Part shown: positions 16,127 to 60,940 of the stretch, one piece after another | Layout of the letters: each line of letters starts with the position of its first letter | Position numbering within the stretch: position 1 is the stretch's first letter | Assembly (NCBI GenBank): GCA_951406725.2 | Contig: OX597814.1 | Coordinates: forward strand, 221,898,001-221,962,000 | Direction: 5' to 3' | From: Octopus vulgaris | Lineage: Eukaryota | Length of the DNA stretch: 64,000 nt | Translations under genes and position numbers: made by a program | Notes under the pieces: model-generated | What the model saw: the letters and a program-made list of their open reading frames with translations, nothing else | What the model was told of the DNA's origin: nothing | The model's database searches: none

Positions 16127-16853
16127 AAACTTAGATAAACTTAGATATGTTTCGACCAATAATTGGTCCAGGCCATGTCTAACTTAATAGCACCACCTGA
16201 TAGGATTATTTGAATCCTGTTTAAGTCAAGTTTTGTTTATGGTCCATTCAAGTAGTGAGTTTTTGTTGGGTGAGTTGTATCCAATTATGGGTGGCTTATC
16301 TGGTATTCCTTGAAGGAATCTATCCAGACTCCGTTTAAAGTTGATGGGATCCTGTTCCTCTTTGATCTCTTTCGGGACAATGTTAAATAGGGCAGTGCCT
16401 GTTGAGGAAAAGAAATTATGTTGTAGTGTACATGTATGCTGTGATCTTGAATTGGGCAGGGGACGTATGGCCCGTGGTCCCAGTCTTGGATGAACCTTGA
16501 AGCTGTAGAACGTTTCCGCGGATTCCAACATTTGCCAATTTGGTGAGTAGGATATTATGGTCTACCCTGTCGAACGCTTTACTGAAGTCAAGATATATGA
16601 CATCAGAGTTCGAACCTGTTCACAGGACTTTGAGTACATCTTCAATGTGGTGTAAGAGCTGTGTTAGACAGTCCCTGACACAGCGAAAGCCATGCTGATT
16701 TGCATTTAGGAGTTTATGGGTCTCCAGGAAGTCAGCTATCCTTGATCTTAACACTCTTTCAAACACTTTGATGATGTGGGAGGTGAGTGAGATTGGGCGA
16801 TAGTTGAGTGCGAGGGATCTGTTTCCCTGTTTGAAAACCGGGATGACTGACTG

Positions 16854-17229: not shown

Positions 17230-17305
<76 letters not shown>

Positions 17306-17310
17306 GAAGG

Positions 17311-17361
17311 AGCTTCTACAGGACTAGAACTGTTTCATTCAAGAGAAATCTTCAGGAAGCT
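17311..17361 (-). ncRNA. Mirror copy of the 17358-17408 hammerhead
   Basis: Follows from the perfect palindrome. Confidence 0.8.
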
Positions 17362-17408
17362 TCCTGAAGATTTCTCTTGAATGAAACAGTTCTAGTCCTG
17401 TAGAAGCT
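17358..17408 (+). ncRNA. Type I hammerhead ribozyme motif
   Basis: AGCTTC-CTGAAGA-tTTC tctt GAAt-GAA-ACAG ttctagtc CTGT-A-GAAGCT; AATAAA just downstream. Confidence 0.85.
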
Positions 17409-17491
17409 CCTTCTATATAATAAATTAATTTTACTCTGCTATGTATTGAGTACCTTATTTACTGTGGTTAACCCCGAATCAACCCGGGACC

Positions 17492-17589
<98 letters not shown>

Positions 17590-36809: not shown

Positions 36810-38044
36810 CAGGGGTTGGACAAAATAATGGAAACACCTAGCATCATAGCAGCATAATTTTGAAATATCTATAAAGCCGCCAAAAACTTATTTTTATGTT
36901 TTTTGATATATTATTAGTGTTGCCTAACATATTTTGCTAAAATTGCCGTTTCTTTTCAGACATCATCAGAAAAAAGGTAATTAAAATTCATTAAAATGAT
37001 AGATCTATCGAACTTTCAAAGCAGTCAAATTGTTGGTGCTACAGTAATGAAAACGGCCGAAATGTTTTGTGTATCAAGGAGTACTGTCCCGAAAGTAATG
37101 ACAGCCTGTGAGAAAGAAGTAAAAGCCTTCTCGTCGAAAACCAAAGAAAACCAAAGCTTTCAGATAGGGACTGTCGGAATCTTACGCGAATTGTTAGAAT
37201 GGATCACAAAAGTACAGCTTTCCAAATTACTGTAGAGTTTTATGACAACCTCGAGAAACCAGTTTTCACAAAATCTCTTGGCCGGGAGCTGCACCAAACC
37301 GGATTTCACGGGGCTGCAATCAGATAAAAGCTATTTTCAAAAACAAACGTTGCAAAGCGTTTGAGTGGAGTAAAAACCTACAGAATTGGTCCCTAGAGCA
37401 GTGGGAGAATGTTGTTTTCTCGGATGAGTCATCCTTAACCTTATATCCGATCAACAGCCGAGTATATGTGTGGAGACAGCCAAAAGAAGCATTTAACCCA
37501 CACTGCCTTCTTCCAACTGTTAAACATGGAGGAGGATCTGTGATGATCGGGGGTGGGGGGGCTATATCTTGGAAATCCGCCAGCCCAATGGCTTTCCTTC
37601 ATTGCAGAATTAATAGTCAAGATTATTTAAGCATTTTATCTAATCAAATTCATCCTATGATTGCGGAACTGTTTCCGGAGGGAAACGCAATCTTTCAGGA
37701 TGATAATGCACCAATTCACACAGCCAAAGTTGTTACTGAATGGCACGAGAAACATTCTAGTAAAGTTGAACATCATATCTGGCCACCACAGTCCCCAGAT
37801 ATCAATATTATTGAAAATTTATGGTGTATTTTAGAAAAACAAGTAAGGAGTCGATATCCACCACCCTCATCACTACAAGAACTGGAGACTGTTTGAGCTA
37901 AAGAATGGACAAAAATTCCTTTGGAAACAATTCAAACAATTCATAACTCGTAGACTTCAAGCTGTAATTACTGCCAGAGGCGATCCTACGCCATATTGAA
38001 ATGATTTGTTTGAAAGGTGTTTCCATTATTTTGTTCAACCTCTG
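36810..38044 (+). mobile_element. Tc1-family (DD34E) DNA transposon, both ends present, frameshifted transposase
   Basis: 30-bp TIRs CAGGGGTTGGACAAAATAATGGAAACACCT (2 mismatches), TA on both flanks; FSDES, VKHGGGSVM, FQDDNAPIH and WPPQSPDINIIENLW motifs. Confidence 0.95.
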
Positions 38045-60021: not shown

Positions 60022-60044
60022 TATAATTCTCCATTCTTATTTAT

Positions 60045-60940
60045 GATGTTTTGATTATATACTCTATATGCTGTAGTGTGGAAGTGTCACGTTGGGGGTT
60101 GGGTCGAAGGTTTAGGAAGTGCTTGAGTGCAAGAAGTTCTTTGTTGTGTGGAATCACCGTATATAGACTCTTGATATGAAGAATGAAGAGCAGTTTAGAG
60201 GGACCAGAAAGGAAGAAGAAAGAGTTGGAGAGACGGAGAACATAGTTACTGTCGTGGATGTGGGAGGGGTGGAAAACCACTGGGGTGGGGGCAAGGACAC
60301 GGGTGAGGTATCTTGCGATCATTTCCGTGGGGCAGTTACAGGTGGAGAGGATGGGGCAGCCAGGGTTGTTGGGATCGTGGATTTTGGGAAGGAAGTCAAT
60401 GGTAGAGGTGCGTGGAATGCGAACAATAAGGTTGGAGGCGGTGGGAGGGAGACGGAAGTGGGTGATGAGATCATGGATAGTGGAGAACACAGTCTGTTGG
60501 TAGTTAGGTGTAGGGTTGGAGGGCAGAGTGCAATAGAAGGAGGTGTCTTGAAGTTGGCGGAGAACTTCAACATTGCAGAGATCTGCGCGTCACACCACCA
60601 CGGCTCCACCTTTGTCAGCCGGCTTTATGATGATATCTTTGTGGGGACATCGAAAGGCCGAGAGTTCGGTCGGGGAGATGTTAAAATGTCGGGGACGCCT
60701 ACGAAAGTTAAACCGGTCCACAACAGGTTGAAAGATGCTTGCAAAATGATCGACTGCTTGGAACTAGCCAGTAGCTGGCGTCCAGGTTGGATGGTCGGCG
60801 ACCCAGGTCGGTGAGGCAGTTCTCTTCATTAGATGCAGGTAGAGTGTTGTGGAATAGTGCATATAGCCTGACGCGGCGCACAAAGCTTTGAATATCAGCA
60901 AAGGTCTGAAATTTGTTACTAGATAGAACTAATATCAGCA
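60045..60940 (-). mobile_element. Penelope-like element reverse transcriptase fragment (decayed)
   Basis: DIIIKPADKGGAVVV, LPKIHDPNNPGCPILSTCNCPTE (cf. LPKIHKPxxPGRPI) and LHIKSLYTVIPH (cf. LDxxSLYTxIP) are PLE-diagnostic motifs. Confidence 0.92.

What the first reader, a model, noticed from the sequence alone, without database searches (positions are those of the whole stretch)
17297..17495. Perfect 126-bp palindrome whose symmetry axis lies in hammerhead stem I, giving a ribozyme motif on both strands
The fold-back centre AAGCTT overlaps the 5' strand of stem I (AGCTTC), so both strands encode the same hammerhead. The right arm continues into AATAAA and a tail of about 75 nt, while the left arm stops at TATATAATA inside the (TA)n target. 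Inference: a very recent insertion in which the cDNA 3' end self-primed on the palindromic stem I sequence and was then joined through TA microhomology. In RNA, the 63-bp hairpin would compete with ribozyme folding.
Basis: partly seen in the sequence, partly recalled or inferred. Interest (0 to 1): 0.75.

Follow-up and report, generated by a model that had tools for sequence, protein, structure and literature searches.

The report
Penelope stub folded at RNA cap
This mirror-image DNA is one of more than 800 back-to-back stubs of a Penelope-type jumping gene in this genome, and its copies suggest that the two halves were likely copied separately from a capped RNA that begins right at the ribozyme, which bears on the open question of how these elements insert.

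Summary
The 126-bp palindrome (17297-17422) is exact, with a hammerhead motif on each strand. It is not a one-off: 819 sites in the genome have two such arms head to head within 30 nt. The parent is a ~5.2-kb, (TA)n-targeting Hydra-clade Penelope-like element. Head-to-head ends with a one-sided tail are a published layout. Junctions do cluster at stem I, but likely because the RNA starts there: TATAAA lies at -29, 29 of 45 single arms joined to (TA)n carry a non-native G before +1, and 6 of 50 junctions have that G on both arms. Best model: both cut target ends prime on sense RNA at two sites, run off the cap and are end-joined. Cleavage, transcription start and polymorphism were not shown. 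I did not find the cap/dual-priming reading in six paper searches. This scan noted it before on other genomes, and dual starts elsewhere in this one.

The parts
17234..17296 (.). (TA)n target, left part
17297..17361 (-). Short arm: element +1..+65, ending near the short priming site (most copies end at +68)
17358..17361 (.). AGCT shared by both arms; symmetry axis 17359|17360; inferred 4-bp annealing of the two cDNA ends; 17358 (+) and 17361 (-) are the inferred transcription start, +1
17358..17497 (+). Long arm: element +1..+140, identical to the reference copy L118
17358..17408 (+). Type I hammerhead motif: stem I 17358-17363/17403-17408, CUGAAGA 17364-17370, weak stem II 17371-17382, GAAA 17383-17386, stem III to 17401, predicted cut after GUA at 17402|17403
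   Evidence: activity untested
17311..17361 (-). Same hammerhead motif on the minus strand
17423..17497 (+). One-sided tail of about 72-75 nt between the two inferred priming sites; ends in CTACATAT, which overlaps the target repeat
17495..17587 (.). (TA)n target, right part, then (TG)n

Best explanation
The palindrome is a minimal head-to-head insertion of the front end of an abundant Hydra-clade Penelope-like retroelement in a (TA)n repeat, likely made when both cut target ends each primed reverse transcription on a capped sense RNA, ran off its 5' end and were joined. Shown from sequence: the parent element, the copy numbers, two fixed outer ends (+68 and +140), the sharp inner edge at +1, TATAAA at -29 and the extra G. 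Inferred: transcription starts at the A of AGCTTC, so the 5' strand of stem I is the first six bases of the RNA; the endonuclease cuts both strands of (TA)n; one end primes near +68 and the other near +140 through TA microhomology; each cDNA ends ...GAAGCT plus a C copied from the cap; the ends anneal over AGCT (this locus; 13 of 50 junctions), over 2 bp using the cap C (7-nt junction), or are joined with inserted bases. Priming at the downstream copy of the same sites would give the kilobase-sized inverted insertions. The stub has no upstream TATA box and its read-through RNA is predicted to form a 63-bp hairpin, so it is likely inert.
For: Family: 8,832 matches to the 3' half of the motif; 819 close head-to-head sites; 49 of 51 examined have one long and one short arm, with 24 different junctions among the 49, so they formed independently. 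Parent: full units of 4.8-5.7 kb (10 copies); 718-residue open frame in L137 with the first Met at +183. RNA start: TATAAA at -29 in 5 of 7 native upstream sequences from four subfamilies, CATAAA in the other 2. Of 69 single arms joined to (TA)n, 45 keep AGCTTC and 29 of those have G before it, against 6 A, 6 T, 4 C (hand count; 28 of 41 among the 62 loci fetched; p=3e-8 against one in four). The native base is T or C. An extra G marks the cap at full-length L1 insertions (PMC11702581, passages). Two separate cDNAs: 6 of 50 junctions have G on both arms, four with a spacer of only 1-2 nt or a differing +1 base; the 7-nt junction favours neither arm (91 vs 78, p=0.36); the short-tail arm is the longer in 12 of 28 longer insertions, by up to several kb; G-bearing single arms end at the short site in 11 and the long site in 13 of 28, 4 unclear (read); in the stem-I-joined class the short arm holds the full core in 10 of 12. 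In vitro, a Penelope protein nicks and extends both strands, starts at two internal sites that define the tail, and is predicted to be a dimer (PMC11167929, parts 1-2 of 4).
Against: No RNA end was observed; the cap is inferred from DNA. Arms of one insertion nearly always share subfamily variants (71 of 72 at +34; 91 of 91 in 24 long pairs), which fold-back also predicts; my model needs one RNA copied twice or two RNAs from one source. Secondary deletions at palindrome centres could shorten either arm; 3 of the 28 long pairs (L046, L050, L061) carry nested or complex sequence, and 5 were fetched for having the ORF. The 7-nt junction was not checked in independent data. The 29 stem-I-joined sites could arise by later deletion between direct repeats. 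A non-templated C could be added at an uncapped end. Priming here shows TA microhomology, unlike the non-homologous priming reported for the anole element.
Confidence: 0.75

Rival explanations
1. One cDNA, primed at the long tail site, folds back at or near AGCT, copies itself to the short site and is joined to the target through TA microhomology.
For: Arms share subfamily and most source variants. The 7-nt junction can be drawn as a 2-bp stem with a 3-nt loop. One private variant is shared by both arms in L075.
Against: It predicts that the long-tail arm always reaches at least as far 5' as the short arm: violated in 78 of 169 7-nt junctions and 12 of 28 long pairs. The perfect centre would need a 2-nt loop. 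It cannot put a cap G on both arms (6 of 50) or on short-tail single arms. The snap-back that stem I would favour has the wrong arm complete in 10 of 12.
Confidence: 0.1
2. The edge at +1 is a structural stop of the reverse transcriptase on a longer RNA, or another processed end, with a non-templated C; two cDNAs are still joined.
For: Stem I is the most stable helix of the isolated motif. In D. virilis Penelope an intron end maps to the 5' end of helix I (PMC4209133, part 2), and its promoter is TATA-less (PMC2377424, passages).
Against: 1,940 copies read through this site into native upstream sequence. TATAAA keeps its -29 spacing while the spacer diverges. The native bases before +1 are CT, AT or CC, not an AG splice acceptor. 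The ribozyme would cut at +45|+46, not at +1.
Confidence: 0.08
3. Self-priming on an antisense transcript, as proposed for rotifer Penelope elements.
For: Proposed in print for head-to-head palindromic junctions (PMC3846280, Discussion read).
Against: The extra G sits at the sense 5' end, 29 nt behind a sense TATA box; both outer ends are fixed sense 3' sites.
Confidence: 0.04
4. Assembly or sequencing artefact.
For: This locus was not confirmed by reads; single-arm lesions in short palindromes may be technical.
Against: 819 sites with varied junctions and a consistent long/short asymmetry; centre-crossing contigs in 4 of 4 other runs.
Confidence: 0.02

Closest known systems
Hydra clade of Penelope-like elements (Craig et al. 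2021, PMC8557442; passages, the Hydra section as shown, supplement search)
   Same: C-terminal GIY-YIG-type domain, DKT, CxCx5C linker, CxxC and CxH, hammerhead, (TA)n targeting; the RT motifs resemble Hydra-1_Obim and Hydra-2_Amil by eye.
   Different: RWR rather than RWK; unit of about 5.2 kb with a 3-kb simple-repeat 3' region, against under 3 kb; three family-specific motifs were absent from the supplement as held (long runs are cut there), and the hammerhead differs from that of Hydra-1_Obim.
Inverted pLTR plus one-sided tail of EN+ Penelope-like insertions (Arkhipova et al. 2013, PMC3846280, passages and Discussion; Craig 2021 Fig. 2 legend)
   Same: Head-to-head inverted ends, palindromic junction with overlap, tail on one side.
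   Different: Tail of about 72 nt rather than 30-40; junctions pile up at one base with an extra G; the paper infers antisense self-priming, which these copies do not favour.
Minimal hammerheads of metazoan PLEs (Cervera and de la Pena 2014, PMC4209133, parts 1-2 of 4)
   Same: Type I motif in the pLTR; the paper notes dual motifs on opposite strands about 100-700 bp apart.
   Different: Here stem II is short with U-U at its base, stem III has 4 bp and an 8-nt loop, and the two motifs overlap.
Anolis Poseidon element in vitro (Frangieh et al. 2024, PMC11167929, parts 1-2 of 4)
   Same: Both strands cut and extended; two internal start sites bound the tail; cleavage not needed for insertion.
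   Different: Different clade; its ORF starts inside the hammerhead; the parts read do not address how the inversion junction forms.
L1 twin priming and cap G (PMC11702581, passages)
   Same: Second priming from the other target end; extra G at full-length 5' ends; microhomology joins.
   Different: L1 twin priming inverts adjacent, non-overlapping pieces; here both arms copy the same stretch.

Membership tests
Hydra-clade PLE (parent element) | Single ORF with RT and C-terminal GIY-YIG endonuclease | tested here: met
   718-residue frame in L137 with YRDD at 352 and Y..YIG at 593-610. Pfam did not detect RVT_1 or GIY-YIG; the assignment rests on motifs and by-eye likeness to published Hydra proteins.
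Hydra-clade PLE (parent element) | DKG modified to DKT; GxKF/Y not conserved | tested here: met
   DKT at 121; no G.K[FY] (definition)
Hydra-clade PLE (parent element) | RWK motif | tested here: inconclusive
   RWR at 43, a conservative variant
Hydra-clade PLE (parent element) | CxCx5C linker; CxxC and CxH near the C-terminus | tested here: met
   CNCHDKTTC at 572, CDLC at 672, CMH at 700
Hydra-clade PLE (parent element) | Insertion into (TA)n; hammerhead in the pLTR | tested here: met
Hydra-clade PLE (parent element) | Generally under 3 kb | tested here: not met
   Units of 4.8-5.7 kb in 10 copies; the paper gives length as a tendency, and the excess is a simple-repeat 3' region
Hydra-clade PLE (parent element) | Placement in the Hydra clade on an RT tree | not tested
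   Reference proteins could be viewed but were not available to the tree tools
Neptune/Nematis PLE | CX2-5CxxC linker | tested here: not met
   Linker is CxCx5C; my first guess, dropped
Type I hammerhead ribozyme | CUGANGA and GAAA core, NUH triplet, three stems | tested here: met
   CUGAAGA, GAAA, GUA; 6-bp stem I, 4-bp stem III, 3-bp stem II
Type I hammerhead ribozyme | G10.1-C11.1 pair closing stem II | tested here: not met
   U-U at that place; conservation stated in PMC4209133
Type I hammerhead ribozyme | Rfam hammerhead model match | tested here: not met
   No hit at gathering score or among 51 matches to E=10
Type I hammerhead ribozyme | Self-cleavage | not testable with these tools
   Needs an in vitro assay
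Non-LTR retrozyme | Head-to-tail tandem units each with a hammerhead | tested here: not met
   Units are head to head; definition from bioRxiv 10.64898/2026.07.22.740005, part 1 of 5

The most novel reading that the evidence does not exclude
Dual target-primed reverse transcription is the normal insertion route of this family: every insertion is built from two cDNAs started at two fixed sites on a capped sense RNA whose first six bases are hammerhead stem I, and the junctions record the cap, misreading of the cap-adjacent A (G-T-GCTTC at 7 of 69 single arms) and, at +46/+49, copying across a ribozyme-cut RNA. The genome would then hold thousands of in vivo footprints of PLE template polarity and of hammerhead cleavage.
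Probability: 0.3. Interest if true: 0.75.

Novelty: new member of a known kind. Interest (0 to 1): 0.5.

Why it matters
The locus itself is one inert stub among hundreds. The family matters because how Penelope-like elements make inverted ends, and which RNA strand they copy, is stated as open in the papers read (PMC3846280, PMC8557442, PMC11167929). The copies point to a capped sense template copied from both target ends and give exact predictions: a CAGE peak at +1, priming at about +68 and +140, end-to-end cDNA joining.

Tried and rejected
DNA search of the own genome found nothing because common words are skipped; patterns were used. Rfam matched only generic hairpin (miRNA) models below gathering score. 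Pfam missed the parent ORF. The RT/GIY-YIG ORF in L103 and the long ORFs in L046, L050 and L105 are other elements, not the parent. Neptune assignment dropped. Lesions at +45..+50 (mostly loss of G46, the base after the predicted cut, and G49): 27 of 144 arms in 72 short palindromes, 9-fold above other positions, never identical in both arms; 354 genome-wide for the two commonest forms. I first read them as proof of separate copying across a cleaved RNA. They are rare in single arms (2 of 49 scorable) and in arms with native upstream (3 of 100 listed), slightly strand-skewed (153 vs 201, p=0.02), and not confirmed in other runs (run X1 shows no depth attributable to the lesion). A hairpin-related technical or mutational cause is not excluded, so they are not counted as support. 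Raw reads of X21 gave only 8 laid reads. RNA-guess contigs cover the motif but cannot show a start, strand or level. Presence/absence was not tested: both flanking (TA)n tracts exceed the 31-letter word of the contigs. No target-site duplication can be read inside (TA)n. An A-to-G signal for one RNA copied twice was not seen: 1 of 11 shared private changes in 24 pairs.

Full report
Observation. The palindrome is exact: arms 17297-17359 and 17360-17422, no spacer; the other long palindromes of the window are (TA)n runs. Each strand carries AGCUUC-CUGAAGA-(weak stem II)-GAAA-(stem III)-GUA-GAAGCU, a type I hammerhead motif. I number the element from the A of AGCTTC (+1 = 17358). The left arm is +1..+65, the right arm +1..+140, and they share AGCT. 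Rfam does not recognise the motif, its folding is no better than shuffles and the base of stem II is U-U, so activity is open. In the read-through RNA the hairpin (-119 kcal/mol) is predicted to abolish stem I. Even in the native 5' transcript the model gives stem I little weight (0.001), so folding help would be needed.

It is one of many. A 43-nt piece has 1,794 exact matches in the 2.8-Gb own genome, the 3' half of the motif 8,832, and 819 sites have two cores head to head within 30 nt. Of 51 examined (50 listed plus this one), 49 have one short and one long arm in (TA)n, with 24 different junctions; the perfect centre is the commonest, 13 of the 50. Long arms end at CTACATAT in 68 of 76; short arms end at +62 to +72, mostly +68. 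Contigs of four other runs cross the perfect centre at full identity, though not by the 31 letters a side that the tool asks for.

The parent. Following long inverted copies led to an ORF end, then to 129 protein matches and full units of 4.8-5.7 kb: hammerhead, tail, ORF, about 3 kb of simple repeats, hammerhead, tail. L137 has a 718-residue open frame with DKT, YRDD, a CxCx5C linker, a GIY-YIG-type motif, CxxC and CxH. These are the Hydra-clade marks of Craig et al. 2021, and published Hydra proteins look alike by eye. Pfam did not detect it and no tree was made.

None of 50 keeps native upstream bases, and only 17 sites have both arms reaching 4 or more bases upstream within 30 nt. But palindromic sequence is not the likely cause, since GTTAAC just upstream is the centre only once among these 17. 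Three things mark +1 as the RNA start. TATAAA stands at -29 in 5 of 7 native upstream sequences from four subfamilies whose spacers differ (CATAAA in 2). Single arms joined straight to (TA)n have a non-native G before +1 in 29 of 45 (hand count after merging overlapping rows into 69 sites; the other 24 lack the A at +1). One of them, L115, continues into the ORF. Six of 50 palindrome junctions have that G on both arms. An extra G is the recognised trace of the cap at full-length L1 insertions. This remains an inference from DNA.

One cDNA or two. Fold-back of a cDNA begun at the long site predicts that the long-tail arm contains the short arm. The 7-nt junction, where one arm is complete and the other starts at about +5, has the long arm complete 91 times and the short arm 78 times (a few rows have added bases or two long arms). 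In 34 longer insertions examined, 2 had no pair in the stretch, 4 were left out for near-equal arms or two long tails, and of 28 the long-tail arm was longer in 16 and the short-tail arm in 12. G-bearing single arms end at the short site about as often as at the long one (11 and 13 of 28), so the short end is a start site in its own right. Both arms ending in the cap-derived base with 1-2 nt between them, or with different bases at +1, cannot come from a hairpin. Against this: arms share subfamily variants almost without exception, which needs one RNA read twice or two RNAs of one source; later deletions can shorten either arm; and the single-arm lesions at +46/+49, which looked like strong support, are confined to short palindromes and unconfirmed in other data, so I do not count them.

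Mechanism. Transcription from the pLTR TATA box gives a capped RNA starting AGCUUC (inferred). The protein, a predicted dimer in a related element that cuts and extends both strands from two internal sites, opens (TA)n. One target end primes near +68, the other near +140 (inferred from the fixed ends and TA overlaps). Using the 5' copy of these sites, both run off the cap after 65-140 nt, and the cDNA ends join: here over AGCT. Using the 3' copy, they stop at random and give kilobase inverted arms. Hammerhead cleavage at +45|+46 does not set the axis. The stub lacks the upstream TATA box, and the variety of junctions shows that stubs form anew and do not spread as palindromes.

Comparison and novelty. 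Inverted pLTRs with a one-sided tail and palindromic junctions and opposite-strand hammerhead pairs are published, so the structure is known and the family is a new member of the Hydra kind. The 2013 paper infers antisense self-priming and calls the question open. I found no paper giving the cap-end, two-cDNA account in searches; the library lacks most subscription papers, only one supplement was searched, and parts of several papers were not read, so an earlier statement may exist. The scan's own notes reached similar readings on other genomes and, for dual starts, on this one. My note of the cap and two-cDNA idea preceded those look-ups and my Hydra assignment preceded; the one-RNA note prompted the test. 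They are not independent support.

Verdict. Observation confirmed; interpretation partly supported; ordinary locus, informative family. Interest 0.5.

Noticed in passing
window 10454-10510 (-) and about 10755-10780 (+): A second, different hammerhead-like motif (CUGAUGA core) on the minus strand, with a partial copy of its 3' half on the plus strand about 250 nt away; likely an older head-to-head remnant of another family.
   Followed up: partly
L103 1059-7541: A different Penelope-like element (775-residue RT plus GIY-YIG frame, a 557-residue frame before it, 1-kb direct and 0.5-kb inverted ends) nested in the 3' region of this family.
   Followed up: partly
L046 4254-7298; L050 4611-7727: Open endonuclease-RT LINE frames of 1015 and 1039 residues inside the simple-repeat region of this element.
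   Followed up: no
L062 4140-7560: The family's 3' region is about 3 kb of mixed TA/TG/TATG repeats, so it carries its own target and spreads microsatellite-like DNA.
   Followed up: partly
single arms listed: G-T-GCTTC (A at +1 read as T behind the extra G) at 7 of 69 sites and in 2 of 50 palindrome junctions; may reflect misreading of a modified cap-adjacent A (recalled idea, untested).
   Followed up: partly
72 short palindromes, element positions +46 and +49: Recurrent single-arm loss or change of two G residues at and just after the predicted cut; biological or technical origin unresolved.
   Followed up: yes
L266-L277 (29 sites): Junctions joining one arm's 5' end to +46..+53 of the other over GAAGCTC; the long arm lacks the core in 10 of 12; the same joint appears in one contig of run X3.
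   Followed up: partly
protein search: Many copies share open frames of exactly 506 or 280 residues instead of 718, suggesting broken lineages that spread in trans.
   Followed up: no
window 16620-16850 (-), 37246-37896 (+), 60041-60589 (-): Frames that look like a LINE RT fragment, a Tc1/mariner transposase fragment and another retroelement RT fragment (names recalled, not tested).
   Followed up: no
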